Positions 12,901-50,816 of a stretch of 58,651 bases of DNA are shown here, piece by piece. How positions within the stretch are numbered: the stretch's first letter is position 1; each line of letters starts with the position of its first letter. This DNA comes from a virus (taxonomy: Duplodnaviria > Caudoviricetes), in the IMG/VR virus record IMGVR_UViG_3300017909_003206, positions 1 through 58,651 of that record, one strand, 5' to 3'. A program made the position numbers and the translations under genes. Below the pieces are notes generated by a model that ran no database searches, was not told the origin of the DNA, and saw only the letters and a program-made list of their open reading frames with translations.

Positions 12901-15900
12901 CGCAAAGGTTCAAGCAAATATAGATGCTAAAGGACAACTAACATCAGTGACTGTATTGAAAAAAGGTCAAAATTATACAAATATTGTATTGACTGTAAGA
13001 CCGTTTAGAGTATTAGTAGATGTAGATGAAACTGCAAATAATAATTGGGCAATATATGAATGGCAGTCTAGTGTAAAAAATTGGACTAGAACTAATACAC
13101 AAACTTATGATGTAAACAGATTTTGGAGATATGCAGATTATATTGTTCCTGATTTTGACAAAGATGAAATAATTGATTACAAATTATCTGCAACCTATGA
13201 ATTGAATACAATAAATCCTGTTTTAGGTGATTTAATTCAAATTGACAACGCCGGAGACGGTAATAAAATGATACTACGTAAAGTAGAAGCAAATGGTAGT
13301 TTTGATGAGAACTATGATTTACTTTACAAAGCAAATAGCACAATACAAATTAACACTAGTATATACAACTATACAGAATTAAATTTTGGTTTTGCTGGAT
13401 TAGAAAACTATGATGACAACTTATTTGATAGTGAACCTATATCTGAAACTAGAAAGGTGTTAGAAACACTTAAAGATAAAATTTTTGTTGATGATCTAAA
13501 AGATAAATGGAATGAATTATTTTTTGTTGCACTACGTTATGTTTTAAGCGAACAAACTTTTGTTGATTGGGCATTTAAAACAAGTTTAATTACAGTAACA
13601 AATGCACTTGGTGGATTTAGTAGAAAAGCAAATTACAAAATCAGTAATCCAGGCTTTATAGAAAGTTATGTAAAAGAAGTTAAACCATATAAAACTGTGG
13701 TAAGAAACTTTGTAAACAGTTACAATCAGTTAGAAAATAACCCTATTGGAAATACAGACTTTGATTTACCAAGTTATTGGGATGATCAAATTAAACAATT
13801 CAAATCTGTTACACTAACAGACGAAAAGATATTTGAACAACCTTATGTAAATTGGTTTGAAAATTACAAGTATAATGTAGGGCGTGTTGATGTTGTGGAA
13901 AAAGGCCAAGGGTATACAGAAGCACCAATTGTAGTTATAAGTGGCGGTAGAACAAACAAACCATCAATAACACAAACAAGTGCATTTAGAAGTCTAGTAA
14001 CAACAGATTACACCGATACAAAGGTTTATATAAAAACTACAAGTATTCCTGATCATGGTTTCCTTAGAAATCCAGGTTCTAACACTGTACTTTCACAAAA
14101 CTTAATATTTGAAATTAACAGAACTCCAGTAGAAGCATTAGACAAAGTCAAAACTCCTTTAGGACCAATTGGCATTGCGGTAAATGGTGTAGTATTTTTT
14201 AATCCACGTGCGGCAATGACAGAAACTAGATCAGGAGTTGAATATGAAGTAAATGCTGTTGACGATCATAACAATCTAAGTATAGATGATGGATCAGGAC
14301 ATCCACAAGAAGATGGAATATATCACTATCATTCTGATCCTAAACTAATGTACACAAAAGACAGTACAACTCATAGTCCTATACTAGGATATGCTTTAGA
14401 TGGATATCCAATATATGGACCGTATGGTTATGATTCTCCAACAGGAAGAAAAGATCCACGTGTTATGCAGTCAAGTTATAGATTAAAAACATCATCACGT
14501 GCAGATGGCAGTACGCCAGATGGTAGATATATTGAAGATTATGAGTTTGTGCAAGGATTAGGTGATTTAGATATACACAACGGTAGAACTTGTAACACAC
14601 CTGAATATCCTAACGGCACTTATGCTTATTTTATAACAGTTGATCCTACAGATACTGATAAACCTGTTTATCCTTATGTGTTAGGACCAACATATTATGG
14701 TGCTACTACATTACCAAATGGAAATAAAACATTACCAGGAGACACAATTATAGATGCAACAGCAACAGCATACGTTTCAAAAGGTATTATTAGAGATATA
14801 GTTTTAACAAATCCTGGTAGCGGCTATGCAAGTGCTCCAACTGTCACACTAGCAGGCGGCGGCGGTACAGATGCTGTTACAAAAACTGCAAAAGCATACG
14901 CAATATTAGAAAATAAAAAAGTTAGAATTAATTCAATCAATATGGCTTTCGACAGATTAAGCAGTAAGAAGATTATACAAACTGAAACTGCGACAGACAC
15001 ATTTACTGCTCTTGCTGGACAAGTTAAATTTAAATTAACATACTTGCCTACTTTAGATAAACGTGAAATTGACATTCAAGTACAGAATGAAACAGTATAT
15101 ATAGAAAACTATGCTGTTAGTATTGTTACAAACACTACTGCTTCATATAAAAAGAAAGAAGGTTACATAATTTTTGACGTACCGCCAACAAAAGGGCAAA
15201 CTGTAACTATTACATATAAAAAATCAATTGACTTGATGCAGGCAACAGATAGAATAGACTATTATTACAAACCAACTGACGGTATGCCAGGCAAAGATCC
15301 TGCACAATTAATGACAGGTGTTGAATATGACGGTGTTCAAGTACAAGGTTTAGAGTTCGATATCAGTGTTGGTTGGGACGGATTACCATGGATGAGTCAT
15401 GGTTGGGATACTTTTGCAGGAGCAAATACTGATTTTGCATTTAGAGCCGACGGAAGTACACAGTCATTTACTTTACCTTATGTACCAGCAAATGGACAAG
15501 AACTGAATATCTACTTTAATGGTATAAGGCAAGATCCAACTAATACACCAACTATTATAGGTGACGGTACAAAAGATACTTTTACCTTAGATGTAGGTGC
15601 TCCAGATGGTACTTTGGTTGTGTTTAGGCAAAAAGAATCAGACGGATCACTAGTTCCAACTGATGTAAACAACATTGACACTATTATAAAAGGTGGAAGT
15701 TTTGATGGCGGAGATGGTAGTACAAAATTATTCAATTACACAACAGCAACAGGACAAAAACCAGAAGATATTAGTTTAGATGGCGACGGTTTTGTAACAG
15801 TAGACACATCACATGCTCCTGAAGAAGTAGTTCCAGGACAAGTATTTGATAGTTTAGCAATGAAAGTTTATAATTCACCTGCAGATGGTTCACCTTTAAT

Positions 15901-30523: not shown

Positions 30524-31804
30524 TTATGCCGCCTCTGTATCGTAATGACAAGTAATACCGTGTGGTGCTTCAATTGACTTATCTGAATGAATCAACCAAA
30601 TTGTGTCACAGTAGTTTTCGTCACCCCAGTTGTATGAGTAACCATCTGTGAATACAATAAGTTTTTTAGGTTCAATATTGTTATCTTTCATATATCTCCA
30701 GTTCGCATCAAAGTCAGTACCTCCGCCACCAGCAAGTTCATAGTCTTCAATAGTTTCTCCTGCATCGGGTGTAAAGTCTTGCTCATTGTATACTTCTGTG
30801 TCAAAACACCAAATTTTAATTTTGTAATCATCATACTGATCACAAATACCTTTTACTTCACTTAAAAAGTCCTTTGCTTCTTTGTTACCAATTGAACCAC
30901 TCATGTCAAGTGCAATAGCAATATCTATTGTTTGATCAAAATCCATACCTGGAAGTACTGCACCTGTGTGCCATGCTTTACGTGATGGACGCATAAAAGT
31001 ATAGTTGCTTTTTAGTATAGATTGAATCTGTTGATTTAACAGTTCTCTCCAGTTCATTTTAGGATCAGTTAAGTCTTTAATGATTCTTGCAACGCCTTTT
31101 GGTATGTTACCAACACCTGCCGCCTGTGCCGCCGAAACTACTGCTTCTTTCATTTCGTCACGTATTTTTTTCAGTTCGTCTTTGCTATATGTTGGTTGTC
31201 CACCTTTGCCTTTTTTAGATTTTTTAGTTTTTCCTGCTGGACCTTGTCCTTTACCTTCTTCCCAGTTAATGTGTTCGTCAAGCAATTTACCAAGTTGTTT
31301 CAATTGCTCGTCATCATACTTTCCAAAAATGTCATCATATACTTCTTCTGATGACCAACCATAATATTTTGTATCATGAAATGGCTTTACTTGTGTAATT
31401 ACTTCTCCGATGTTATGTCGAATCAAATCACCATTTACACAATAGTCTGCCGCAATGTTATGAATTTGAGGATCACGTTCACCTCTACGTGTAAAGTGAT
31501 CATAAACACAATGCAATACTTCGTGTCCAAACAAAAACTCAGTTTGTTTTTGATTCAAAACATTTATAAAATTTTCATTGTAAAAAAAGTGTCTGCCATC
31601 TGTGGCCGCAGTTGCACACCAATCTGTAGCATCTTCAAGTTTCAATCTTGTTGCAAGATTACCAAAAAATGGTTGCCTAATTAGTAAGGCAATTCTTGCA
31701 GTTGTAAGTTTTTCTCTAATTTTGTTGCTATCGATTTTAGGGTCTTTCTCATAGATCTTACCCTCCATCATGCTTTGTTCTACTGCGGTTGTATTTTGTG
31801 ACAT
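30524..31804 (-). CDS. Metallopeptidase-like + VWA domain protein (DUF2201-type), MoxR partner
   Basis: 'TAATDG', HExxH ('HEVLH'), MIDAS 'DMSGS', 'GGGGTDF' and 'FTDG'. Confidence 0.88.
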   Translation of the reverse strand: MSQNTTAVEQSMMEGKIYEKDPKIDSNKIREKLTTARIALLIRQPFFGNLATRLKLEDATDWCATAATDGRHFFYNENFINVLNQKQTEFLFGHEVLHCVYDHFTRRGERDPQIHNIAADYCVNGDLIRHNIGEVITQVKPFHDTKYYGWSSEEVYDDIFGKYDDEQLKQLGKLLDEHINWEEGKGQGPAGKTKKSKKGKGGQPTYSKDELKKIRDEMKEAVVSAAQAAGVGNIPKGVARIIKDLTDPKMNWRELLNQQIQSILKSNYTFMRPSRKAWHTGAVLPGMDFDQTIDIAIALDMSGSIGNKEAKDFLSEVKGICDQYDDYKIKIWCFDTEVYNEQDFTPDAGETIEDYELAGGGGTDFDANWRYMKDNNIEPKKLIVFTDGYSYNWGDENYCDTIWLIHSDKSIEAPHGITCHYDTEAA

Positions 31805-32456: not shown

Positions 32457-32485
32457 ATTCTAAATTAGTGTTGTCTTGTTGTCAA
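32457..32485 (-). promoter_or_regulatory. Sigma70-like promoter
   Basis: TTGACA-17 nt-TAGAAT on the - strand. Confidence 0.65.
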
Positions 32486-33099
32486 CTGATTTGGAATAAT
32501 TTGTTTATTTTATTTGGTGGAGTTGTAATAGAAGCCATCTCTTCAAAACTTGCACATTCGTAATTCCACCACTTGCGATGTCTTTCAGGATGGTAATCAA
32601 AATTAGGCTTTTCAAACACACCACCTTTATAATGTATAATAATTTCTAATTTGCCATTTACTTCATCTGCAGGTATACAGAAAAAGTAAAATTGTTGGTT
32701 AATTGTGTTGTAACCACAAATCCTTACTAATCCTTCTTTGTGTTTAGTGCCTGGAACTGCAAAACTGTGTGTCCAGCATCCTTTTAACACTTGATTGTTT
32801 CTAAATTGACTAGTTGTAAACTTTGCATCTGATTTATCACTAAAGTCACTACCATAACCTAGTGTAATATCGATATCTTTGTTTACACATCCTATTGCAA
32901 GTTCTAGCAGATCTTCGTATGTAAGATTGCGTAAAAAATCTGTAGGATATGCAACATTCATTTCTGGTTGATGATAATAGATTTTATCAAGTAGGAAATT
33001 TTTAATTATTTCGTTTTGCTCGGCTCTACGAGAGAACCAATCCATTTTAAGACGTGTTTCAAAATCCATATCAATACTAGTTACCGGATTTGCCAACAT
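32482..33099 (-). CDS. Hypothetical protein, possible PD-(D/E)xK nuclease
   Basis: 'LLELAI...GSDFSDKSDAK' fits E..D..DxK. GAGG RBS. Confidence 0.45.
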   Translation of the reverse strand: MLANPVTSIDMDFETRLKMDWFSRRAEQNEIIKNFLLDKIYYHQPEMNVAYPTDFLRNLTYEDLLELAIGCVNKDIDITLGYGSDFSDKSDAKFTTSQFRNNQVLKGCWTHSFAVPGTKHKEGLVRICGYNTINQQFYFFCIPADEVNGKLEIIIHYKGGVFEKPNFDYHPERHRKWWNYECASFEEMASITTPPNKINKLFQIS

Positions 33100-33163: not shown

Positions 33164-34255
33164 TTAGGATGCCATAGCGGCTTGAACATACTTGCCGTAC
33201 TTACTGTGAAAACGGTCAAAGTTTTTCAAGTCTTTAGGCGAAAATGGCAGTTTATAAGTAGCGATAGCAACTCGCGTACCCATTACAACTAGTTCAGTTT
33301 CAAAATTATCCATCATAAAACCAAAAAAGTTATCAGCCATCTTGTTCCAACCCTTCTCCTTGCGTTTGAACGCCTCTTGAAGTTCGTAACACATACTAAC
33401 AGTCAAAGAGTACATAGCGGAAATATCTTTAGTTTCCATGCTAGTAACTTTGCCAGCAAGTATGTCAGTTGGATTAGGCAGTTGTGATGCAACCTTTCGG
33501 TGTGCGGAAAACTTAACTGCCAAGCCTTCGCCGACGGAACCAGCAACCAAATCAGTTAATGTTGATTCAGCAAGGTTATCGTCGAGAAGTTCGCTCACAA
33601 ACGACCAACTACGTGGCGTTGCGAATGCTCTTGAACTTGACTTAGGATCAAAATCATAAAGATCTTGTTTTGCAAAAGTCAAGTAACCCACTACATCTGG
33701 GTGTACTTTATTTTCAGTTGCCCAAAGCAACCAATCTTCAAAATCTACTCTCAACTCCAAGTGCAAAAACCTGTTTGCCAAAGGTGCTGGCATTCTGTAT
33801 GTAACACCTTTATCAGTTTCCCTATTACCCGCCGCTACAATAACAACGTTATCAGGAAGTTTATATGTACCTACCTTACGGTTAAGCACGAGTTGATATG
33901 CCGCCGCCTGTACTGCTGGTGCGGCCGAATTCATTTCATCTAAAAACAATACAATAGTATCATATTGTTTTGCAAACTCTTCATCAGGAAGTTCTGAAGG
34001 AGGTGCCCATTTCATAGTGTTATCATTTGCACTATAATAAGGCATACCTTTTACATCAGTAGGTTCCCACAATGACAGACGCACATCAATTAAAAATGCG
34101 TTCTTCATTGAATTTGTGATTTGTCCCATAATGTCGGACTTTCCAATGCCTGGAGGTCCCCACATAAAGATAGGACGTTTTTTGTTCATTGCGTGTTGAA
34201 CAGCCGCCTTTGCTTCATTTGGTGTAACTGTTCTTGCTTCAGTTTGTTGTGCCAT
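33164..34255 (-). CDS. MoxR-type AAA+ ATPase
   Basis: Walker A 'GPPGIGKS', Walker B 'LFLDE', sensor 'AAGN', Arg finger 'LANRF' and 'TPRSW'. Confidence 0.92.
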   Translation of the reverse strand: MAQQTEARTVTPNEAKAAVQHAMNKKRPIFMWGPPGIGKSDIMGQITNSMKNAFLIDVRLSLWEPTDVKGMPYYSANDNTMKWAPPSELPDEEFAKQYDTIVLFLDEMNSAAPAVQAAAYQLVLNRKVGTYKLPDNVVIVAAGNRETDKGVTYRMPAPLANRFLHLELRVDFEDWLLWATENKVHPDVVGYLTFAKQDLYDFDPKSSSRAFATPRSWSFVSELLDDNLAESTLTDLVAGSVGEGLAVKFSAHRKVASQLPNPTDILAGKVTSMETKDISAMYSLTVSMCYELQEAFKRKEKGWNKMADNFFGFMMDNFETELVVMGTRVAIATYKLPFSPKDLKNFDRFHSKYGKYVQAAMAS

Positions 34256-38592: not shown

Positions 38593-38903
38593 ATGTATCT
38601 CCTTATCCTTGCTAGTTTATCTTCGGGTGTGTCACTGTTTTTGCCATCCATATCTTCATACTTGATATTACTTTCAGGAGCAATAGTTTCAGTCTCAACA
38701 CCTTTACTTTTCTTATTAAGTTTATCCTTTAATAATACAAATAAGTCTAATATAGAATAAATTAAAAAGAAAGTAACAGTTAACACTAACAAAATAAATG
38801 TAAGAAGCAATTTAGAAATAGTAGAAAACAGATTAGACTTGCTTAATGCAAGTGCTTTATCTTCTGCTTCAAACCAAATAGTTGTTAATTTATCCTTAAT
38901 CAT
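38589..38903 (-). CDS. Predicted single-pass membrane protein
   Basis: Hydrophobic run LLLTFILLVLTVTFFLIYSIL; ATGA overlap with queE. Confidence 0.6.
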   Translation of the reverse strand: MIKDKLTTIWFEAEDKALALSKSNLFSTISKLLLTFILLVLTVTFFLIYSILDLFVLLKDKLNKKSKGVETETIAPESNIKYEDMDGKNSDTPEDKLARIRRYM

Positions 38904-39814
38904 GTTCCTATGGCATTGCCGAACAAGTACACATGTACTCTTGCCGCCACATTATAACCTCTTTTAAATGCCTTTTCTGCCACTTTACCTGCACTAGCAG
39001 TTTGTTCTTCTTCTCTTGCACCTGTAGGCATAATCCATACTGGCCAATCAACACCTGCATCTCTAAACTTTGCAACTGCTTCTTCCATTTCATTCCATTC
39101 TCTATCTTTATGACCTACAACAAATTTAAGTTGTCCTTTACTACTTACTTTTGAGTATTCTGCAACAATCTCAGGTTTAATTGCCTTTTCAGGTTTTTCT
39201 CCACTTACTGTAAATAGTTTAGGACTACAACTAAAAAATATTTCTGTATCTACATTTGAACCCCATTCAATAAATTCAGGCCTTAACTTTTGTGTGCCAT
39301 TAGTTTCAAATGTCATACTACCGGGCAAGTTATCTTGTCTTTTTAGTTCATTGTATATCCCTACCACTGCTTGTTGTCCTGTAATCATTAAAGGCTCACC
39401 GCCTGTAAAACAAAGATGCTGATGAAACTTACTTACAGGATGTAAAAATTTTCCTTCAGGATTGCTGTCATTTTTAATACAATCTATAATTTTATTTGCA
39501 AGTGTGCTAGGAGTTTCATGACCCATTAATTTTTTGAATTTCTTTGCCCAAGTGTAACTTGAATCACAACCTTTTTCCCATACAGGCAAGTCTTCAACTC
39601 TTTTTACACTGTCAACATCAAAATCTTCAAATGGCAATTCATATGTATCTGGGTTGGTTGGGTCTAGTTGTCCAAAACCATTACACTGTAAATTGCATAA
39701 AAAGAATCTAATCCAGGCTGTAGGAGCACCTGTATAATGCCCTTCACCTTGAATACTATAGAATATTTCTGAGTAGTAATACTTTTTTTCATCCATCTGT
39801 TTAGCCTTTATCAT
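38900..39814 (-). CDS. queE: 7-carboxy-7-deazaguanine synthase (radical SAM), atypical Cx3Cx38C motif
   Basis: 'SEIFYSIQGEG...G.P...IR...CNLQC', 'CDS.Y', 'TGGEPL', 'ETNGT', 'SPKL' and 'R.H'. Confidence 0.88.
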   Translation of the reverse strand: MIKAKQMDEKKYYYSEIFYSIQGEGHYTGAPTAWIRFFLCNLQCNGFGQLDPTNPDTYELPFEDFDVDSVKRVEDLPVWEKGCDSSYTWAKKFKKLMGHETPSTLANKIIDCIKNDSNPEGKFLHPVSKFHQHLCFTGGEPLMITGQQAVVGIYNELKRQDNLPGSMTFETNGTQKLRPEFIEWGSNVDTEIFFSCSPKLFTVSGEKPEKAIKPEIVAEYSKVSSKGQLKFVVGHKDREWNEMEEAVAKFRDAGVDWPVWIMPTGAREEEQTASAGKVAEKAFKRGYNVAARVHVYLFGNAIGT

Positions 39815-42450: not shown

Positions 42451-43137
42451 TTATCTTGGAGCAAATTCTTGTTGAAGTTTCACATTATCTATAAACTCTT
42501 TCTTTGTTGCTGGATCATTTTTAAATGCTCCTCTAAGAACAGTGGTTTGAGTTAATGAACTATGTGCTTGGATACCTCTGTTTTCACAACAACCATGTGT
42601 TGCTTGTACATATACACCAACATGCTCACTACCTGTTTGTTTTTGAATTTCATTAGCAATCATAACATTTAATTCTTCTTGTAGTGTTCCACGTTTTGCA
42701 CACCATTGTGCTATTCTTGTGTACTTGCTTAATCCTAATAGTTTAGGACCAGCAATGATACCAATATATGCTACACCAGATACTGGTTGATGGTGATGTG
42801 AACAAACACTCTTTAGTTCACTTCTTACCACTAGCATACCTTCATAACCGTTTTCAATATAGTTTGGAAAAGCACTTGGATTAGGCATTGGATCATAACG
42901 TCCACTCATAATCTCATTAATATACATTTTTGCCATACGTCTTGCAGTATCCATGCTATTAGGATCTGTTTCAGTATCAATTAGCAAGTGTTGTAAAACA
43001 TTTTCAAAAGCAGGTACTGCCTCATCAATTAATTGTTGCTTTTCATCTGAATCAATATATTTAGAAATATTGTCATTCGCCCAATATCTAATATTATTTT
43101 CTTTAAGTCTTTGTTGAATTTTGTCTTTAATTTTCAT
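42451..43137 (-). CDS. folE: GTP cyclohydrolase I
   Basis: 'T..R.AKMY', 'S.CSHH', 'GLSK..R', 'LQE' and 'H.C...RG'. Confidence 0.95.
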   Translation of the reverse strand: MKIKDKIQQRLKENNIRYWANDNISKYIDSDEKQQLIDEAVPAFENVLQHLLIDTETDPNSMDTARRMAKMYINEIMSGRYDPMPNPSAFPNYIENGYEGMLVVRSELKSVCSHHHQPVSGVAYIGIIAGPKLLGLSKYTRIAQWCAKRGTLQEELNVMIANEIQKQTGSEHVGVYVQATHGCCENRGIQAHSSLTQTTVLRGAFKNDPATKKEFIDNVKLQQEFAPR

Positions 43138-43177: not shown

Positions 43178-44278
43178 TTATTGTAACCTCTCAAGTAAAT
43201 TTTTGCAACTAAAATAGTTTTCATTTAGATGAGTAGTCAGTTTATTTAGGTTTACAAGATGCTGATCATAATTTTCCATATAGTCAATTATGCGTTCAAC
43301 AACTTTATCTTTGTTATTTTTATATGCTTCAAATGATTCAGTCCATTCTGACGGATATAAAAATTTGCCAGTGTTTTCCATTTCACTATAACTTAATCTA
43401 TCTGGAACCATTGGCAATGTTCCAACAACAGATCCTTCATACCAACTGATACCAAGTGTTTCTTGCAAATTAGCACTAAACACTAATTTACTTTCACCTA
43501 GTAAGTTATAGTATTCTTTCTTTTGTAAATTGCGTTCCATTGCAATTACAAATTCATATTGTGTCAAAGTTTCTTTTAAATCTCTAAATATTTCTGGTTG
43601 CTTTTCTGGTGCAACTCTATGTGGGAATAAAATTATATTTTTCTTGTCCATCCCAATAAATGGAGTAAGTTCATCTCTCACATAACTCATAGGCCAGCCA
43701 CAACGAACAATCTTACCATTGTCATATCTTGCCTTCCAAGTTTCTTCATATAAAGGATTATGTTCTTTACGACCATCATTTAATAATTCATCAAAAAATA
43801 ACTTTACATGGAATTCAGATGCAAAATAATTATGATCATAACTGTGAAAGAAACTTTTTTCTGCATTTCTAACCCATGGACTATTACCAATCAATCTTCC
43901 TAAGAAGTCTTGAGGATCATAAGATCCGGCATGCCACAATGCGTGTGTAATAATTTTAACTCCAAGCAACTCGGCCATATACTTTAAATTAATAATACCA
44001 GGATGCCAAGCATCAGTAAATAAAAAATGATCACCATCTTTTACTTCGCCTGATGTAAATGCTCTCGATATTACTTCAACTTGTTTTGATTTGTAAATGT
44101 TAGTTCCACCAAAGTTAAGAAATGCGCCTGGAGTAGTTGCATTAGGTATATCTTTTGGACCTTCGACAACATTTACAGTATGTCCGTGTTTCTTTAATAG
44201 TTTTGGAAGATATGTTTTCCACTCTTTAGTGTATCTTGTTTCTACACTTTCTAAATCAATTAACCATACTGTACTCAT
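43178..44278 (-). CDS. GT-B fold glycosyltransferase within the deazaguanine cluster
   Basis: 'FPHR.APEKQPE.F', the GT1/GT4-type donor-binding motif 'S..LQETLGIS..EG...G..P.VPDRLSY.EM', and 'WHAGSYD'. Confidence 0.8.
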   Translation of the reverse strand: MSTVWLIDLESVETRYTKEWKTYLPKLLKKHGHTVNVVEGPKDIPNATTPGAFLNFGGTNIYKSKQVEVISRAFTSGEVKDGDHFLFTDAWHPGIINLKYMAELLGVKIITHALWHAGSYDPQDFLGRLIGNSPWVRNAEKSFFHSYDHNYFASEFHVKLFFDELLNDGRKEHNPLYEETWKARYDNGKIVRCGWPMSYVRDELTPFIGMDKKNIILFPHRVAPEKQPEIFRDLKETLTQYEFVIAMERNLQKKEYYNLLGESKLVFSANLQETLGISWYEGSVVGTLPMVPDRLSYSEMENTGKFLYPSEWTESFEAYKNNKDKVVERIIDYMENYDQHLVNLNKLTTHLNENYFSCKNLLERLQ

Positions 44279-44750: not shown

Positions 44751-45194
44751 TTAGTATTTGGGGTACTCGATATGAGCACCATTCTCTCCGTCTTCAGATA
44801 TGTCTATATGAACTTCCCTACCCGGATACTTTTCATGTATCTTAGTATAAAGATCATCTGACATCATTTCACATGATTTGTAATCAAGATCTAATGTTTT
44901 TTCTGCGTATAATTTCTCCATCCAACGTTTGAATTGAATAAACTCAATATCTCTGTCATTGTGTGTTACAGTGATACCTACTTTAAAATGAAATATGTGT
45001 CTGTGTGGATACCCTAAAAAAGACACATCATCCCAATCTCCTGTTGCTAACTTAGGATCATCTAAGGCCGCAGGATACTTATGAATACCTTCTTTTCTAA
45101 AAGTAACCCAAATCATTCTTTTAGCAGTATTCATAATATGTTCTTTAGTTTCTGTTTCCATTTGTTCCTTCATCTTTGTATCTACTATGCTCAT
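44751..45194 (-). CDS. QueD-like T-fold protein with LxxxHRHxF motif (DpdL-like; candidate CDG decarboxylase)
   Basis: 'EGIH.YP', 'LGYPHRHIFHF', 'DRDIEF', 'SCEM', 'SEDGENG'; lacks the QueD CxxxHGH motif. The true start is probably a downstream Met, because a -10 box abuts the first ATG. Confidence 0.7.
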   Translation of the reverse strand: MSIVDTKMKEQMETETKEHIMNTAKRMIWVTFRKEGIHKYPAALDDPKLATGDWDDVSFLGYPHRHIFHFKVGITVTHNDRDIEFIQFKRWMEKLYAEKTLDLDYKSCEMMSDDLYTKIHEKYPGREVHIDISEDGENGAHIEYPKY

Positions 45195-45908: not shown

Positions 45909-47366
45909 TTATACCTCCTCAAATAAATTCTGAAACTGTGTAGAAGCATTCACAGTTTTCTTACCTGTTGCGCCTCTAGTGCCGATAATCGACATCCAGA
46001 ATCTGGAAAACTCTTCAATGACTGCGTTTGCAGTGTCTCTGTTGTCAGTTGCGAATATTGCCTCCACAACATCTCTAAATAAAACCCTGTCAAACTGTTC
46101 ATCGACAAGCATGTTTGGAATGATGCCATTGTCGTATTGTCTGTTTGCTTCTTGTACTGCATTAATATGACTCCATACATTATGTCCCATTTGGATTGCA
46201 TATGAAAAACTATCCCAGGATGTTTTTCCTTCTTTACCTATTTTATTTAGGTCCCCAGGTGCGTATATACAAACATCTTTTGCTTGTAAATCTTTTGTTA
46301 CAGGACTATCTAAGAAACTTCCGTGTTTTCCTTCTCTAACAAATGCAGTACCAAAATGTGTTGTATCAGTTGCAAGTGCTTTATCATCGATGCTAGGCAC
46401 CATTCTGTATACCCATTTGCTTCTGTCTTGTGTTTCTAGTTCACAATAAATTTGACCATTTGCTGTAGCAAGGAACGGAGATGCACAGTCAAATGTAATC
46501 GTAAAGTTTGGATTGTGATACTTGCGTACTGCTCTTTGTATATCTGTAAGTAGTGTTGCCCACTCGAGTTTACTAGTACCTAAAAAATGCATAAAGTCAT
46601 GTACACCTTTTTCTAATAAACCATCAAAACGTAAAGACACAAGTCTTTTTAACACTAGATGTACATCACACATATTTTGACCACCCATTGACCATCCATT
46701 AAAATGTGTGTCCGGGTATAGTTTTGGATCACAATAGTCTTTCATTTGCTGATACCAATCTTCTGCATCAGTATGATTTTCACCTTGTAGAACATTTAAG
46801 AACTTACAAGCACCTGTTCTATTTTTCATAAAATAGTCGTTGTTTATTCTTGTTGCCGTTACGGCATCTTGATAGTTTGTAATGCCTGTTGCTTTTTGTC
46901 CTGCAGGTGAACGTGATACCCATGCCGGAATATCAAGTATCATACCATAGTCCATATATGCGTCCATCCAAGTTAATACTTGTTCACGTTTCTTTTTTGC
47001 TTTAGGACAGTTAGGATCTTTCCAATTACCTTCCCAAACACCTTTACCAATTTGAAAGCCTCCCGAGTCACCAAGTAACCAACTGTTTTCTCGATCACGT
47101 TCACGTATCATTAGTTCTTTAGGTGCGTCTTTATTAATGTCAAGTTCGGCATGACCCGCACTGTATAAACTCCAATGATAGTTAAACATACTATCTTTTT
47201 TGTTAAACCAGTTTAGTCCTTCCATCTCGTTGTTTGGAAATGGTATACGACTTTTTTCTACGTATTCTTCTCTACGTTGTTTGCCGATAAAAGTCGCATA
47301 GAAACCACTGATCGCCGGCAAGAAAATCGCATAATCTTTTTGTTCTTTTGTTAGATCAGTGTTCAC
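45909..47366 (-). CDS. dpdA: TGT-superfamily transglycosylase, DpdA-like (inserts 7-deazaguanine derivatives into DNA)
   Basis: 'LGDSGGFQ', 'LDIP', 'NVLQG', 'HFLG' and 'TFDCASPF' are TGT/DpdA core motifs. No C-terminal Zn CxCxxC as in tRNA TGTs. Clustered with folE and queE. Confidence 0.78.
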   Translation of the reverse strand: MNTDLTKEQKDYAIFLPAISGFYATFIGKQRREEYVEKSRIPFPNNEMEGLNWFNKKDSMFNYHWSLYSAGHAELDINKDAPKELMIRERDRENSWLLGDSGGFQIGKGVWEGNWKDPNCPKAKKKREQVLTWMDAYMDYGMILDIPAWVSRSPAGQKATGITNYQDAVTATRINNDYFMKNRTGACKFLNVLQGENHTDAEDWYQQMKDYCDPKLYPDTHFNGWSMGGQNMCDVHLVLKRLVSLRFDGLLEKGVHDFMHFLGTSKLEWATLLTDIQRAVRKYHNPNFTITFDCASPFLATANGQIYCELETQDRSKWVYRMVPSIDDKALATDTTHFGTAFVREGKHGSFLDSPVTKDLQAKDVCIYAPGDLNKIGKEGKTSWDSFSYAIQMGHNVWSHINAVQEANRQYDNGIIPNMLVDEQFDRVLFRDVVEAIFATDNRDTANAVIEEFSRFWMSIIGTRGATGKKTVNASTQFQNLFEEV

Positions 47367-47377
47367 TACTGTTCCTC

Positions 47378-48109
47378 CTACTTACTTTGTGCTGGCAAAA
47401 TATATTCATAAGTTGCTAGACCGCTGTCTACTTGAATCTGCATAGCACCTTGATCTGAAAACTTCATTACCTTATCGCCATCTAAACTTAAAATAGCAAG
47501 TGTTTGTTGTACAGGCCATGCCCACTCATTTTTAAGAGTACCGCTTATACCTGCATGGAAAACAAATTCACCTGCGTGTGTACTTGCATCGCCAAACTTA
47601 AATTTAAGATTAGCACCATCTGTTATAACTGTAAACACAGTTTCTTCAGCATTTGCAGTTGCCTGCATTTTAAATCTTTGCACACTTGCAATAGTTGGTG
47701 AAACTTCTACGTCCCACTGTGCGCCTTTGAACTTAACAGTTTTTAATTTTTCATTAATAATATCTGCGTTCATAAAGCGATAATCATTTTTAAAATCACC
47801 TGTTGCATTTTCAAAGTGTATTCCTACCGGAATAGTTTCACCATTTCTATCTTGTCTTACAACATCAATAGAAGCACCATCTTTGTATTCAGGGCATTTT
47901 AAATGAATGTCAAGTTTATTTAGGTTAGGCATACCAAAAGTACCCTTCATTTCTACTTGAGCATTTTTAGTATTTGCCTGCATGATTACAGAGCGATCCT
48001 CTGCCATGCTATCAATACCAGTTTGTGCATCATCACCGTTTACTTTAACAATGTTAAGAAAGCCAAGTGCGTGTGTATGTGCAACAATATCTTGTAATAT
48101 GTCTTTCAT
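47378..48109 (-). CDS. Probable DNA polymerase sliding clamp (gp45/PCNA-like)
   Basis: 243 aa, directly downstream of the polymerase, with a two-domain beta/alpha pattern and a PCNA-like C-terminus 'G...Y.YILPA'. The call rests on position and pattern. Confidence 0.65.
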   Translation of the reverse strand: MKDILQDIVAHTHALGFLNIVKVNGDDAQTGIDSMAEDRSVIMQANTKNAQVEMKGTFGMPNLNKLDIHLKCPEYKDGASIDVVRQDRNGETIPVGIHFENATGDFKNDYRFMNADIINEKLKTVKFKGAQWDVEVSPTIASVQRFKMQATANAEETVFTVITDGANLKFKFGDASTHAGEFVFHAGISGTLKNEWAWPVQQTLAILSLDGDKVMKFSDQGAMQIQVDSGLATYEYILPAQSK

Positions 48110-48131
48110 AAGTTTTTTCTCCGTTCCTTAT

Positions 48132-48160
48132 ATTATATTTAGAAAATCACTCAATGTCAA
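48132..48160 (-). promoter_or_regulatory. Perfect-consensus sigma70 promoter for clamp-dpdA, overlapped by TAAATA
   Basis: TTGACA-17 nt-TATAAT. The -35 lies in the last codons of the polymerase, and CTAAATA overlaps the -10. Confidence 0.8.
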
Positions 48161-50816
48161 ATAAATTATTGAATGTATTCTTCTGTTCGGTTGATTTAAT
48201 ATCCCAATCTAGTACTCCAATTAAATTATCTAACTTATTATCGATAATTGTTGACTCCATTTCGTCATCTGCGAACGGAAGTTCTTGGAACCATTTTGGA
48301 AGTCTAAGTTCATCCGTAGGATATGCAACCGAAGTATATCCCATTGGATTTGTTTTTAGTTTGCAAACGATAACTTTCATACCATCTACAATCTGCATAC
48401 TAAACTTGTCACTATTCATTTCTTTCAGTGAATTCCAGTTAATACTTGCTCTTACGTGTCCCGGCATATTCACCTTTCCATGTTTTTTAAGTCTTGCGAG
48501 ATAATCTGTAACGTTGTTTGCACGTTTAGGTGAACCTTTTTCCCAGCCAGGCCTTGCTTTAAATTTTGTTCTAAACTCAGTAATCATGTCTAGCACATCA
48601 TCTTCTTTAGCACCTGTTAGTACTGCTAACAATACCTCACTTAAAAAGTCTTGCATAAAAACTGGAGTATCAGAACGTTTCAGATCTAATCCCATTGCTT
48701 TTACTTTACCTGGTTTGCCGTCAGTGTCTGTTCTAAATCCTTCTAAGTCATAAATTAAAACTGCATATCTTTTCTTAGTAATATACAATCCTTTTTCGCC
48801 TACAACTTCTCTACCTGCCGCAATAACTTCTCCTCTTGACTTAGGACAATGAAATGCTTGTCCCATAAATGATGGAAATGTTTTGTTTGCTTCTTCACAA
48901 ATTTGATCATACAGTGTAATCACACTATCTTTATCCCAAGGTATTTGACCTTTTTCTATTTCAGCACGTAAACTAGTATATGCACTAAAATAAACAGAAT
49001 CTGTATCACCATATATAATACTTTTACCTACATGATCATATTCACCTGTAATAATCTCATTTACTTTTGCAGACATGTGTTTTGCAATACGCCTACCTGT
49101 AAGTGTTGTGCTTTGCCCAATTCTATGATCAAAAAATCTACAACCTGGATTAAGAATAGCACCATACAAACTATTTAGGTTAATCTTTTTAACTAGTTGC
49201 CTTTTATCCCAAAATGCAGTTTCAATTTTATTGCCGGCATCTTGTGCTTGACCTTTTTTTGCCTGCATTTCTTTTCGTTCAGCATACCATCGTTTTAGTA
49301 GTCCAGGAATAATGCCTTCATATTCTGTTGTAAAAATAGTTCCGTTTGCACTTAACATCCAAGGTTGACTACTATCAAAAATAAGTTTGTACACTTCTGC
49401 GGCACTTAATGTATCAGATTCACCGTTTTCCCAATCAATTATAATTTCAATATCCTTACGTTGTTCCATTACGTAATCATATTCTAAACTACCAAACTTT
49501 CCTTCCCATGCCGCCGCAAATGATTTTTTCTTAAGATGCATTTGCTCGTCGATGTAAGTTTCCGTATGATTTTGTCTAAGTTGTCCTACAACTGTTGCAG
49601 GATCCATGTTTAATGCTCTAATTACACTAGGATACAGTGAATTTAAATCCATTGATCCAATCCAATCATGTAGTCCTTTTTTAGGATATGCCACATACGC
49701 ACCAGCGGCCGCATTTGACCCAGGTTCTCTGTGTACTCTATTAGGAACAATGAAACCACGTCTATGTGCTTCGTTAATAATCGCTTGTTCAGTTACTGCT
49801 ACTGCTCCCATTGTAGTAGGAAGTAATACAGTATTTGCATGAGCAAGTTCGTTTGCTAGATCAATAAATCTTAATTTTTTGTCCAACTTGTCCAGTAGTG
49901 CAACGTCTTGCCTGTTGTATTCAATGAATGTTCTGAAGTCATTGTTATAAAGTTGATCGAGTGTACCTTCATAAACAGTTTTCTTTTCGCCAACTTCCAT
50001 TTCGCCAATAGCGTCGAGCCTATAAGTGTGTCTTTCTTCATATGTATACTTTCTATATAATTCTAAACTATCTAAATGCTGTCTACCAACAAGATCATAA
50101 GTTTCTTGTTCGCGACCGTATTTTTCATAAGTTCTTTTCTTAGGATATTGATCCCACAAACAAAAACGTCTGGTATCTTCTTTTGAAAGAACTCTTGTAA
50201 TTCTATTAACAGTGTACGGGATATCATATCCTTCACTGTTCCAACCTGATAAAACATCTGCATCTTGTATTAGATCTAAAAATGTATCTAACATTTCTGC
50301 TTCTGTTTCAAACAAGTAAGTGTTATCAAAGTCTTTACATTCTTCCTTTGCCTGTTCCATTGTAAGTGTTTTAGGCGGAAGTGCTAGTGTTATCAAACTG
50401 TCCATCCATTGTAAATGTACAGTGATAGCAGTAATTGGAGTGAATGGATCCTCTGGAGATGAATAACCTCTCTCAGGATCAAAGTCTACTTCGATATCAA
50501 AAAATGCAACATTAAGATTTGGAGCATCTTGACCTAAGTAGTTTTCTTCAAGTAATCTATATACAGGATTTACATCTGCTTCATATAGTCCGCGATGTTT
50601 ATTGATTTTTTGTTCTTTAAGGAAGTCTTTCCAACTTTTACATACTACTCTTGATGCAGTATCTCCGTGGGTGCTTTTGTGTTTACCCTTAGGATCTTTG
50701 TAATAGAATACATATCTTGCTGGAAACTCGCGAAACTCTCGTTCGCCTTTTTTACTTCGTTCGACAACTTTAATAATGTCTTTGTCTCTATCCCATAGAG
50801 CGTCTACGTAACTCAT
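48147..50816 (-). CDS. Family B DNA polymerase (T4 gp43-like)
   Basis: Exonuclease motifs 'FDIE', 'WN...YD' and 'YN.QD'; polymerase motifs 'DLNSLYPS', 'K..LNSLYG', 'YGDTDS' and 'KKRY'. Confidence 0.97.
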   Translation of the reverse strand: MSYVDALWDRDKDIIKVVERSKKGEREFREFPARYVFYYKDPKGKHKSTHGDTASRVVCKSWKDFLKEQKINKHRGLYEADVNPVYRLLEENYLGQDAPNLNVAFFDIEVDFDPERGYSSPEDPFTPITAITVHLQWMDSLITLALPPKTLTMEQAKEECKDFDNTYLFETEAEMLDTFLDLIQDADVLSGWNSEGYDIPYTVNRITRVLSKEDTRRFCLWDQYPKKRTYEKYGREQETYDLVGRQHLDSLELYRKYTYEERHTYRLDAIGEMEVGEKKTVYEGTLDQLYNNDFRTFIEYNRQDVALLDKLDKKLRFIDLANELAHANTVLLPTTMGAVAVTEQAIINEAHRRGFIVPNRVHREPGSNAAAGAYVAYPKKGLHDWIGSMDLNSLYPSVIRALNMDPATVVGQLRQNHTETYIDEQMHLKKKSFAAAWEGKFGSLEYDYVMEQRKDIEIIIDWENGESDTLSAAEVYKLIFDSSQPWMLSANGTIFTTEYEGIIPGLLKRWYAERKEMQAKKGQAQDAGNKIETAFWDKRQLVKKINLNSLYGAILNPGCRFFDHRIGQSTTLTGRRIAKHMSAKVNEIITGEYDHVGKSIIYGDTDSVYFSAYTSLRAEIEKGQIPWDKDSVITLYDQICEEANKTFPSFMGQAFHCPKSRGEVIAAGREVVGEKGLYITKKRYAVLIYDLEGFRTDTDGKPGKVKAMGLDLKRSDTPVFMQDFLSEVLLAVLTGAKEDDVLDMITEFRTKFKARPGWEKGSPKRANNVTDYLARLKKHGKVNMPGHVRASINWNSLKEMNSDKFSMQIVDGMKVIVCKLKTNPMGYTSVAYPTDELRLPKWFQELPFADDEMESTIIDNKLDNLIGVLDWDIKSTEQKNTFNNLFDIE

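What the first reader, a model, noticed from the sequence alone, without database searches (positions are those of the whole stretch)
45909..50816. Possible replisome-tethered DNA base exchange: the DpdA-like enzyme shares the polymerase's C-terminal clamp-docking peptide
Seen: gene order is polymerase -> putative clamp -> DpdA-like, with 11 bp between clamp and dpdA and a consensus promoter in front of the clamp. The polymerase ends ...KNTFNNLFDIE* and the DpdA-like protein ends ...STQFQNLFEEV*, so two unrelated folds share F-x-N-L-F-[DE] at the extreme C-terminus. Known: T4/RB69 gp43, gp33 and gp55 dock on the gp45 clamp through a hydrophobic C-terminal peptide (SLDFLF-like). Inference: this transglycosylase rides the sliding clamp and swaps G for a 7-deazaguanine base directly behind the fork. 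I do not know of this being described for DpdA enzymes. Caveat: the last codons also overlap a -35 box (pol) and an RBS (dpdA), but the F-x-N-L part lies outside those elements.
Basis: partly seen in the sequence, partly recalled or inferred. Interest (0 to 1): 0.85.

Follow-up and report, generated by a model that had tools for sequence, protein, structure and literature searches.

The report
Phage base-swapping enzyme with clamp tail
A marine giant-phage fragment encodes a DNA polymerase, a ring-shaped sliding clamp and a guanine-swapping enzyme in a row, and the enzyme carries the same short tail as the polymerase, which suggests that DNA is chemically disguised while riding the replication clamp.

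Summary
On the minus strand lie a T4-type family B polymerase (48147-50816), a 243-aa protein that models as a PCNA-like clamp (47378-48109), and a 485-aa protein that models as a tRNA-guanine-transglycosylase (TGT) fold (45909-47366). The clamp-to-enzyme gap is 11 bp, and a perfect sigma-70 promoter overlaps the polymerase's last codons.

Both tails are as quoted. The enzyme's last 23 residues are predicted disordered. The motif [FY]-x-x-L-F is present in the enzyme in 80 of 80 related loci and in the polymerase in 67 of 67. Its Leu is encoded by 4-6 synonymous codons, so selection acts on the protein.

In distant lineages both tails carry the L-F core, and in some they resemble each other closely (Vibrio phage: NTDLFDW and NNDLFGW). 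The covariation test is only marginal (p = 0.043).

T4 gp43 and gp55 end in SLDFLF and SLDFLY, which a T4 review describes as clamp-binding epitopes.

The neighbouring genes encode FolE, a QueE-like protein and a homologue of the predicted decarboxylase DpdL.

Binding was not tested because the complex predictor was unavailable. My searches found no paper linking DpdA to a clamp.

Verdict: a likely clamp-docked DNA base-exchange enzyme, a new variant of known kinds. Confidence about 0.6.

The parts
48147..50816 (-). Family B DNA polymerase of T4/RB69 type, 889 aa
   Evidence: Pfam DNA_pol_B 4.1e-34 and DNA_pol_B_exo1 2.2e-17. PHROG 262 'DNA polymerase' 2.7e-193. PDB RB69 gp43 chains match at E 6e-14, aligned up to chain residue 850 of 903. 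Nearest cultured phages are Phosso at 51.8%, Atu_ph07 at 47.6% and Vibrio phage 2.275.O at 43.6%.
48150..48173 (-). Polymerase C-terminal motif F-N-N-L-F-D-I-E, the putative clamp-docking peptide
   Evidence: [FY]xxLF is present in 67 of 67 related polymerase ends. Leu uses 4 synonymous codons in 26 distinct DNA versions. It resembles the T4 gp43 end SLDFLFG.
48132..48160 (-). Sigma-70 consensus promoter TTGACA-17-TATAAT in front of the clamp gene, with the -35 hexamer inside the polymerase's last codons
   Evidence: 12 of 12 matches; sequence read. This is a consensus match only; function is not shown.
47378..48109 (-). PCNA/gp45-type sliding clamp subunit, 243 aa, two domains
   Evidence: AlphaFold2 on 44 sequences gave pLDDT 93.4 and pTM 0.90. 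Foldseek against the PDB found at least 500 matches at E <= 0.001, the top ones yeast, human and archaeal PCNA with TM 0.62-0.71 and probability 1.00. No Pfam family passed and PHROG 12062 has no known function. Homologues are annotated as PCNA or sliding clamp in phages PAC2 and Phosso.
45909..47366 (-). DpdA-like TGT-fold transglycosylase, 485 aa
   Evidence: AlphaFold2 on 53 sequences gave pLDDT 91.9 and pTM 0.92. All Foldseek PDB top matches are tRNA-guanine transglycosylases (probability 1.00). VIA-align gave Z 19-20 over about 300 residues to archaeosine, bacterial and human TGT. D100, S101, G103, D293, H260 and G263 are invariant across 53 sequences. No Pfam or PHROG hit.
45912..45980 (-). 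Disordered linker and tail of the DpdA-like protein (residues 463-485); motif F-Q-N-L-F-E-E-V lies at 45912-45935
   Evidence: pLDDT is below 50 for residues 463-485. [FY]xxLF is present in 80 of 80 related loci and in 120 of 120 close database homologues. Leu uses 6 synonymous codons in 50 distinct DNA versions.
44751..45194 (-). Protein of 147 aa homologous to phiST CGPG_00067, the predicted CDG decarboxylase DpdL
   Evidence: BLASTP to phiST CGPG_00067: 30% identity, E 7e-17. To PA5oct EST35_0318: 58%, E 8e-51. The DpdL prediction is from PMC10516641 (passages).
43178..44278 (-). Conserved 366-aa neighbour, possibly a glycosyltransferase
   Evidence: 44% identical to PA5oct EST35_0317, which also follows the DpdA-like gene. 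Only a weak, sub-threshold Pfam Glycos_transf_1 match at E 0.01.
42451..43137 (-). GTP cyclohydrolase I (FolE), the first step of 7-deazaguanine synthesis
   Evidence: Pfam GTP_cyclohydroI 8.3e-39. 39% identical to phiST FolE.
38900..39814 (-). QueE-like radical SAM enzyme
   Evidence: PHROG 2076 'QueE-like radical SAM domain' 1.1e-52. 36% identical to the PA5oct protein annotated '7-carboxy-7-deazaguanine synthase'.

Best explanation
The 485-aa protein is a divergent DpdA-type DNA guanine transglycosylase. It exchanges guanine in phage DNA for a 7-deazaguanine base made by the neighbouring FolE, QueE-like and DpdL-like enzymes.

Its catalytic TGT-fold body is followed by a flexible linker of about 20 residues and a short hydrophobic-acidic peptide, [FY]-x-x-L-F-[DE]. 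This is the same kind of peptide as on the phage's own family B polymerase.

By analogy with T4 gp43, gp33 and gp55, the peptide most likely docks on the PCNA-like clamp encoded by the gene immediately upstream. The enzyme would then be held on newly replicated duplex DNA, on clamps at or left behind the fork, and would modify it as it is made.

Shown here: the two folds, the gene order, the disorder of the tail, its conservation at protein level, and its likeness to the polymerase tails and to the T4 epitopes. Inferred: binding to the clamp, DNA rather than tRNA as substrate, the identity of the base, and the timing relative to the fork.
For: Folds:
- Clamp.
- TGT fold. Residues D100-S101-G-G-F-Q105 and D293 are invariant or nearly so.

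Pathway context:
- The window holds FolE, a QueE-like protein and a DpdL-like protein.
- Homologues in PA5oct and in Vibrio phage 2.275.O sit beside QueE, or beside QueF, QueC and FolE.

Tail conservation:
- Residues 463-485 are disordered.
- [FY]xxLF is present in 80 of 80 enzyme ends and 67 of 67 polymerase ends.
- Residues at motif positions 2 and 3 vary freely, while Leu and Phe stay fixed through 4-6 synonymous Leu codons.
- Among 99 distant representatives, hydrophobic-x-x-[LM]-F occurs in the last 50 residues of 38, against 3.7% of internal windows.

Same-genome pairs, polymerase then enzyme:
- Window: FNNLFDIE, FQNLFEEV.
- L100: FQQLFDFK, FNNLFEMA.
- Second clade, L084-L092: TTFNDLFDF, xNLFDFx.
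- L094: AMKLFNY, AKSLFEF.
- Vibrio phage: NTDLFDW, NNDLFGW.
- PA5oct: FDSLFGW, FNSLFDV.
- L165: FNKLFDF, FSSLFEGA.

Other support:
- In the 349-kb Vibrio phage record, 6 places read L-F-x-W-stop. Three of them end annotated genes: the polymerase, the DpdA-like protein and a 74-aa protein.
- The order clamp then enzyme holds on one strand in 87 loci, with a gap of at most 439 bp in 77 of them.
- T4 gp43 ends SLDFLFG and gp55 ends SLDFLYEAND. [quoted passage not shown]
- In the contig that holds L094, a D12-class adenine DNA methyltransferase also ends INHLFSF.
Against: - No binding evidence of any kind exists. The complex predictor was unavailable.
- Covariation is weak. In a permutation test over 7 lineages, 215 of 5040 permutations reached the observed score (p = 0.043). 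The cognate tail was the best match in only 3 of 7 lineages. The Phosso pair (FNDLFTF and VEGLF) scored worst.
- In marine loci whose polymerase ends DKLFG, the enzyme keeps NLFEEV.
- A bare [LM]F near the C-terminus occurs in 3-5% of ORFs. Examples include an endolysin and a head-closure protein. The methyltransferase case could therefore be chance.
- Of the 99 representatives, 46 have no [LM]F in the last 50 residues.
- In 23 of 80 loci the motif is internal and followed by an acidic extension of about 30 residues. This departs from the strictly C-terminal T4 pattern.
- The E-E-V codons double as a ribosome-binding site.
- T4's own DNA glucosyltransferases lack such a tail, so there is no phage precedent for a tethered modification enzyme.
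- The Pfam TGT model does not match the protein. DNA rather than tRNA as substrate is not shown.
Confidence: 0.6

Rival explanations
1. The shared tail is a real docking peptide, but its partner is another replisome or DNA-metabolism protein, such as the clamp loader, the single-strand binding protein or the helicase. It could also be the polymerase tail's second site. In that case the enzyme is recruited to replication factories without riding the clamp.
For: All conservation evidence fits any shared partner. The T4 review notes that the gp43 tail prefers the open subunit interface of gp45 in solution and that more than one site exists (PMC2988020). Many homologues carry a second acidic K-L-E-x-L-E module, which hints at a further partner.
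Against: The polymerase is homologous to RB69 gp43. For RB69 gp43, the review describes the 11 C-terminal residues co-crystallised on the clamp face. The clamp gene lies directly between the two tailed genes in 87 loci. The tails resemble the T4 clamp epitopes.
Confidence: 0.15
2. The enzyme is a tRNA-modifying TGT or works on free substrates. Its tail serves another purpose, such as turnover, localisation or packaging into the virion, and is unrelated to DNA modification.
For: All structural matches are tRNA enzymes. No assay exists for this family. The PA5oct clamp homologue is annotated 'structural protein' from mass spectrometry, so some of these proteins may be in particles.
Against: The gene sits among replication genes and 7-deazaguanine synthesis genes, as phage DpdA genes do (PMC10516641, passages). 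PA5oct DNA resists several restriction enzymes in a way that suggests a modified G (PMC12191111, passages). A polymerase-like tail makes little sense for a tRNA enzyme.
Confidence: 0.1
3. The likeness of the two tails is a coincidence or a by-product of overlapping DNA signals, namely the -35 box in the polymerase and the ribosome-binding site in the enzyme.
For: The overlaps are real. Short L-F ends are common: 3-5% of ORFs have one.
Against: The conserved residues [FY], L and F lie outside the ribosome-binding site and are kept through synonymous codon changes. The motif persists in lineages with about 30% identity and in different gene spacings. In the Vibrio phage the two tails share N-D-L-F-x-W.
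Confidence: 0.03

Closest known systems
Phage T4/RB69 clamp-binding C-terminal epitopes of gp43, gp33 and gp55 on gp45
   Same: Each is a short hydrophobic-acidic peptide with an L-[FY] core at the end of a variable, flexible linker. The same peptide sits on the polymerase and on unrelated proteins of one phage. T4 gp43 ends SLDFLFG and gp55 ends SLDFLYEAND (review PMC2988020, passages). The window's polymerase is a gp43 homologue.
   Different: Here the second client is a DNA base-exchange enzyme, not a transcription factor. The clamp is closer in fold to PCNA, and no gp45 row is among the 50 shown. The motif is F-x-x-L-F rather than L-D-F-L-F. In 23 of 80 loci it is internal and followed by a second acidic module. 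Binding is not shown.
DpdA DNA guanine transglycosylases (bDpdA, DpdA1-4) of bacteria, phages and archaeal viruses
   Same: TGT-superfamily fold. The gene lies beside FolE, QueE and T-fold genes. The setting in a phage replication module resembles DpdA3 of Cellulophaga phage phiST, which lies between the pathway genes and the polymerase genes (PMC10516641, passages). The window also has a homologue of phiST DpdL.
   Different: The window protein has 485 aa, against 259 aa for phiST DpdA3. The profile comparison gives only 76% probability over 82 columns. Neither the family profile nor Pfam TGT finds anything in Campylobacter phage CP220. No named DpdA subfamily could be assigned. The passages I read of the papers on these enzymes mention no clamp or C-terminal docking peptide.
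PCNA-interacting (PIP-box) DNA-modifying and repair enzymes of eukaryotes, such as DNMT1 and UNG2 (recalled; no paper read here)
   Same: The logic is the same: an enzyme that must treat all newly made DNA is tethered to the sliding clamp by a short linear motif with paired aromatic or hydrophobic residues.
   Different: The motif differs, the chemistry differs (methylation or uracil excision against base exchange), and the lineages are unrelated. This comparison rests on my own knowledge, not on a call.
Hypothetical proteins EST35_0316 of Pseudomonas phage PA5oct and NVP2275O_468 of Vibrio phage 2.275.O
   Same: These are the closest cultured-phage homologues: 36% identity over residues 4-412, and 33% over residues 3-222. 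Both share the polymerase, clamp, enzyme gene order. Both carry the L-F motif.
   Different: They are annotated only as hypothetical. PA5oct adds an acidic extension after the motif. The Vibrio protein is 596 aa long.

Membership tests
TGT / DpdA superfamily | TGT-type barrel fold | tested here: met
   Model pLDDT 91.9. All Foldseek top matches are TGT, probability 1.00. VIA-align Z 19-20, about 300 residues aligned, rmsd 4.3-4.8.
TGT / DpdA superfamily | Conserved catalytic aspartates: the D-S-G-G-[FY]-Q motif and the F-D-C aspartate | tested here: met
   D100, S101, G103 and D293 are invariant, and G102 and Q105 nearly so, in 53 diverse sequences. Equating them with the TGT catalytic residues is recalled, not computed.
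TGT / DpdA superfamily | Match to the Pfam TGT model (PF01702) | tested here: not met
   No Pfam hit for the window protein. Only 2 of 53 family members match, at best E 0.043. A profile search against PDB sequences found nothing. Membership therefore rests on fold and motifs.
Phage DpdA (DNA 7-deazaguanine insertion) | Encoded beside 7-deazaguanine synthesis genes in a virus | tested here: met
   FolE, QueE-like and DpdL-like genes lie within 7 kb. Homologues sit beside QueE in PA5oct and beside QueF, QueC and FolE in the Vibrio phage. QueC and QueD were not found in the window.
Phage DpdA (DNA 7-deazaguanine insertion) | Acts on DNA; modified base present in virion DNA | not testable with these tools
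DpdA3 subfamily | Sequence kinship with phiST CGPG_00065 or the Campylobacter phage DpdA3 | tested here: inconclusive
   hhalign gives 76% probability and E 2e-5 over 82 of 259 residues. No match in CP220 with the family profile or with PF01702. The lengths are 485 aa and 259 aa.
PCNA / gp45-type sliding clamp | Two-domain clamp fold of about 240 residues | tested here: met
   Model pLDDT 93.4. PCNA chains match at TM 0.62-0.71, probability 1.00.
PCNA / gp45-type sliding clamp | Forms a closed trimeric ring that is loaded by a clamp loader | not tested
   No oligomer model was run (unavailable). No clamp loader was identified in the window. The AAA protein at 33164-34255 matches AAA_3-type ATPase models and lies next but one to a DUF2201/VWA protein.
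T4-type clamp-binding C-terminal epitope | Hydrophobic-acidic L-[FY] peptide at the end of a flexible linker, shared with the cognate polymerase | tested here: met
   with lineage pairs. Exception: the motif is internal in 23 of 80 loci.
T4-type clamp-binding C-terminal epitope | Binds the clamp and is interchangeable between clients | not testable with these tools

The most novel reading that the evidence does not exclude
An abundant group of marine and soil jumbo phages, including PA5oct-like phages, couples DNA hypermodification to replication. A divergent DpdA-type transglycosylase, and perhaps other DNA-modifying enzymes such as a Dam-like methyltransferase, rides the phage's PCNA-like clamp through a polymerase-type F-x-x-L-F peptide. 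Many variants add a second acidic K-L-E-x-L-E peptide for a further replisome partner. Such tethering could be what allows a post-replicative base-exchange enzyme to reach very high or complete replacement of guanine.
Probability: 0.4. Interest if true: 0.8.

Novelty: new variant of a known kind. Interest (0 to 1): 0.7.

Why it matters
Phage 7-deazaguanine modifications are held to be inserted after replication by DpdA enzymes. How some phages reach complete replacement is open (PMC10516641, abstract and discussion passages).

A clamp-docking tail would give a concrete and easily tested mechanism: the enzyme would be delivered to every stretch of new DNA by the replication clamp. This would be the phage counterpart of clamp-tethered maintenance enzymes in eukaryotes.

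The family is very abundant. At least 7990 database proteins matched in a capped search, and 961 clusters at 50% identity matched. It includes cultured phages (PA5oct, Vibrio 2.275.O, Phosso), so experiments are within reach.

The finding also flags a distinct, unannotated DpdA-like subfamily and an unannotated PCNA-like clamp family (PHROG 12062). Both are useful for annotating jumbo phages and for predicting resistance to restriction enzymes.

Tried and rejected
Sequence-only identification failed.
- phmmer of both proteins against PDB sequences gave only chance hits.
- A 53-sequence profile against the PDB gave nothing.
- Pfam and PHROGs gave nothing for the enzyme.
- Megablast of 6 kb against cultured phages found no match.

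The search for further clients of the tail was inconclusive.
- The DNA pattern for [LF]-F-x-[FY]-stop gave 62 hits in contig G005 against 51 for the reversed control.
- ORF-level scans showed a 3-5% background, which includes an endolysin, a head-closure protein, a homing-endonuclease-like protein and a QueD-like protein.
- Only a D12 methyltransferase and a 74-aa Vibrio-phage protein are suggestive.
- The window ORF 32482-33099, ending NKINKLFQIS, has no family and no match in 5 related contigs.
- The second PA5oct L-F-x-W-stop site does not end a gene.
- No other ORF in four sequences ends in the acidic K-L-E-x-L-E motif.

DpdA3 in CP220 could not be located with my profiles, so whether DpdA3 phages with a gp45-type clamp carry a tail is untested. 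The CP220 polymerase ends ETLEEW.

Distant-lineage sampling was thin. Three single-protein scans found no relative. One tail-less member lies in an Azospirillum contig with no clamp or polymerase within 8 kb by BLAST (n = 1).

Literature searches were made, with passages read. None links DpdA or 7-deazaguanine insertion to a clamp, PCNA or the replisome. Supplements were closed. Supplementary Data S1 of PMC10516641 and the supplements of PMC7824862 may already list the PA5oct protein as a transglycosylase.

Full report
WHAT IS THERE

The window (58,651 bases, about 33% G+C) is a fragment of a large phage. Genes run rightward up to about 27.6 kb, including one ORF of 4663 aa, and leftward after that.

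In the stretch in question, the minus strand carries three genes:
- an 889-aa family B DNA polymerase (48147-50816);
- a 243-aa protein (47378-48109);
- a 485-aa protein (45909-47366).

The polymerase matches Pfam DNA_pol_B and the T4-type PHROG 262. It is a homologue of RB69 gp43. Its nearest cultured relatives are the jumbo phages Phosso, Atu_ph07, Vibrio phage 2.275.O and the 121Q group, at 44-52% identity.

- the two C-termini are as quoted;
- 11 bases separate the second and third genes;
- a perfect TTGACA-17-TATAAT lies at 48160-48132, with its -35 hexamer in the codons F-D-I of the polymerase;
- the E-E-V codons of the third gene form the ribosome-binding site of the next gene.

THE TWO UNANNOTATED PROTEINS

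Sequence searches name neither protein.

The 243-aa protein was folded with 44 relatives taken from related contigs. The model is confident (pLDDT 93.4). It matches PCNA chains from yeast, human, archaea and African swine fever virus at TM 0.62-0.71 and probability 1.00. It is a two-domain sliding-clamp subunit. Some phage records already call its homologues PCNA or sliding clamp.

The 485-aa protein was folded with 52 representatives of 26-45% identity. The model has pLDDT 91.9, with only residues 463-485 below 50. All top PDB matches are tRNA-guanine transglycosylases, with Z 19-20 over about 300 residues.

Across the 53 sequences, D100, S101, G103, D293, H260 and G263 never change. The stretches GDSGGFQ and FDC recall the two catalytic aspartate motifs of TGT. 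That equation is from my own knowledge.

The downstream neighbours fit a 7-deazaguanine pathway:
- FolE;
- a QueE-like radical SAM protein;

The homologues in PA5oct and in Vibrio phage 2.275.O also follow a polymerase and a clamp. They precede QueE in PA5oct, and QueF, a transporter, QueC and FolE in the Vibrio phage.

PA5oct has been said to hold a deazaguanine synthesis and incorporation system (PMC7824862, passage). Its DNA resists several restriction enzymes in a pattern that suggests a modified G (PMC12191111, passage).

The protein is therefore best read as a DpdA-type DNA transglycosylase. It fits none of the named subfamilies that I could test. Against phiST DpdA3 (259 aa), the profile comparison gives 76% probability over 82 columns. 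My profiles find nothing in CP220.

THE TAIL

The family is huge in marine metagenomes. At least 7990 proteins matched in a capped search, some with Tara labels. At 50% identity, 961 clusters matched.

In 80 related viral contigs (78-92% identity), the enzyme has [FY]-x-x-L-F in its last 50 residues in 80 of 80. The polymerase has it in 67 of the 67 contigs that hold its end.

At DNA level, the Leu of the motif is written with 6 different codons in the enzyme (50 distinct versions) and with 4 in the polymerase (26 versions). The Phe uses both of its codons. The first position is only F or Y. The two middle residues vary freely. Selection therefore acts on the peptide, not on an overlapping DNA signal.

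In 57 of 80 loci the motif lies within six residues of the end. In the other 23 it is followed by an acidic extension of about 30 residues that ends in K-L-E-x-L-E. The same two-part tail is seen in PA5oct and in many distant representatives.

Among 99 representatives of at least 400 aa:
- 31 have [LMF]F in the last 8 residues, against 3.8% of internal windows;
- 38 have hydrophobic-x-x-[LM]-F in the last 50, against 3.7%;
- 46 have no [LM]F there at all.

One such tail-less member sits in an Azospirillum contig, without a clamp or polymerase within 8 kb.

DO THE TWO TAILS GO TOGETHER?

The polymerase and enzyme tails of the same genome, polymerase first:
- Window: FNNLFDIE, FQNLFEEV.
- L100: FQQLFDFK, FNNLFEMA.
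- A second clade at about 34% enzyme identity: TTFNDLFDF, xNLFDFx.
- L094: AMKLFNY, AKSLFEF.
- Vibrio phage 2.275.O: NTDLFDW, NNDLFGW.
- PA5oct: FDSLFGW, FNSLFDV (internal).
- Phosso: FNDLFTF, VEGLF.
- L165: FNKLFDF, FSSLFEGA.
- L162 group: FQSLFEF, YKTLYD plus an acidic extension.

A permutation test on seven lineages, made before the last two were fetched, gives p = 0.043 (215 of 5040). The cognate tail is the best match in 3 of 7. This is suggestive only.

The Vibrio phage case is sharper. In the 349-kb record, six places read L-F-x-W-stop. Three of them end annotated genes: the polymerase, the enzyme and a 74-aa cysteine-rich protein. Three further F-F-x-W-stop places were not checked.

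The order clamp then enzyme holds on one strand in 87 loci, with at most 439 bp between them in 77. In Phosso the enzyme lies elsewhere, beside the primase and helicase genes.

COMPARISON WITH T4

Read from the T4 record, gp43 ends KASLDFLFG and gp55 ends SPSLDFLYEAND. The two glucosyltransferases have no such end.

The review of T4 late transcription makes four points (PMC2988020, passages):
- it calls them freely interchangeable;
- it says they are joined to the body by a divergent, probably unstructured linker;
- it says the 11 C-terminal residues of RB69 polymerase were co-crystallised with the clamp.

The tail found here has the same make-up, the same position and the same kind of linker. 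It sits on a homologous polymerase next to a clamp gene.

MOST LIKELY MECHANISM

The enzyme is made from the same operon as the clamp. It is held on newly replicated duplex DNA by docking its tail on the clamp, at the fork or on clamps left behind. There it swaps guanine for the 7-deazaguanine base supplied by the neighbouring pathway. The polymerase and the enzyme would compete for, or share, the three sites of a trimeric ring. The acidic second module of many variants may reach another partner.

Shown: folds, context, disorder, conservation, likeness.
Inferred: binding, substrate, base, timing.

I put this at about 0.6. The main rival is a shared partner other than the clamp (0.15). Next is a tRNA enzyme with a tail of another use (0.1). 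Chance or DNA-signal overlap comes last (0.03).

AGAINST, AND LIMITS

- No binding test could be run.
- Bare L-F ends are common: 3-5% of ORFs, including an endolysin and a head-closure protein.
- The further 'clients' are therefore leads, not proof. These are the D12 adenine methyltransferase ending INHLFSF in the L094 contig, the 74-aa Vibrio-phage protein, a QueD-like protein ending NEDLFA and the window ORF 32482-33099.
- Nearly half of the distant representatives lack the motif.
- Covariation is marginal.
- The clamp loader was not found in the window.

NOVELTY

Five full-text searches and the passages read show no link between DpdA or 7-deazaguanine insertion and a sliding clamp. Supplements, which may list the PA5oct protein, were closed.

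The parts are known kinds: clamp-binding tails, DpdA enzymes and PCNA-like clamps. Their combination is, as far as I could see, new. I rate it a new variant of a known kind, with interest 0.7.

Noticed in passing
Loci L002, L008, L020, L028 and others; proteins P0001, P0003, P0030, P0067, P0100; PA5oct L081:5995-7617: In 23 of 80 related loci, in PA5oct and in many distant representatives, the enzyme's L-F motif is followed by an acidic extension of about 30 residues ending in K-L-[DE]-x-L-[DE]. This looks like a second short linear motif. Its partner is unknown. No other ORF in four phage sequences ends this way.
   Followed up: partly
L113:1504-2463 (-), same contig as L094: A D12-class N6-adenine DNA methyltransferase (Pfam PF02086, 1.1e-13) ends INHLFSF. 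This resembles the polymerase end (KLFNY) and the DpdA-like end (SLFEF) of the same phage. It may be a second DNA-modifying client of the clamp, or it may be chance given the 3-5% background.
   Followed up: partly
L096:1314-1538 (+), Vibrio phage 2.275.O NVP2275O_204: A 74-aa cysteine-rich hypothetical protein ends SSLFEW. It is the only annotated gene besides the polymerase and the DpdA-like protein found to end in L-F-x-W in this 349-kb record. In size and tail it recalls T4 gp33.
   Followed up: partly
window 32482-33099 (-): A 205-aa ORF with no family ends NKINKLFQIS. It is the third ORF of the window with an L-F end. It has no match in five related contigs.
   Followed up: partly
window 44751-45194 (-) and 43178-44278 (-): The first is a homologue of the predicted CDG decarboxylase DpdL of phiST (E 7e-17). 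The second is a conserved 366-aa neighbour with a weak glycosyltransferase signal. No QueC or QueD was found in the window, so the inserted base may be 7-deazaguanine or a further-decorated derivative rather than preQ0.
   Followed up: partly
window 3962-17953 (+): A single ORF of 4663 aa sits among rightward genes that look structural. It was not examined.
   Followed up: no
window 30524-31804 (-) and 33164-34255 (-): A DUF2201 metallopeptidase/VWA-like protein and an AAA_3-type ATPase lie close together inside the replication-side gene block, with two ORFs between them. The pairing resembles MoxR-VWA pairs, a comparison I recall rather than tested.
   Followed up: no
L081:4912-5658 (PA5oct EST35_0314): The PA5oct homologue of the clamp is annotated 'structural protein' on the basis of ESI-MS/MS. 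This would mean the clamp was detected in virion preparations.
   Followed up: no
Loci L001-L094 between polymerase and clamp: The polymerase-to-clamp spacing is under 125 bp in 32 of 78 loci and 299-3374 bp in the rest, so one or more genes are inserted there in many relatives. In PA5oct the polymerase itself is split by a homing endonuclease gene.
   Followed up: no
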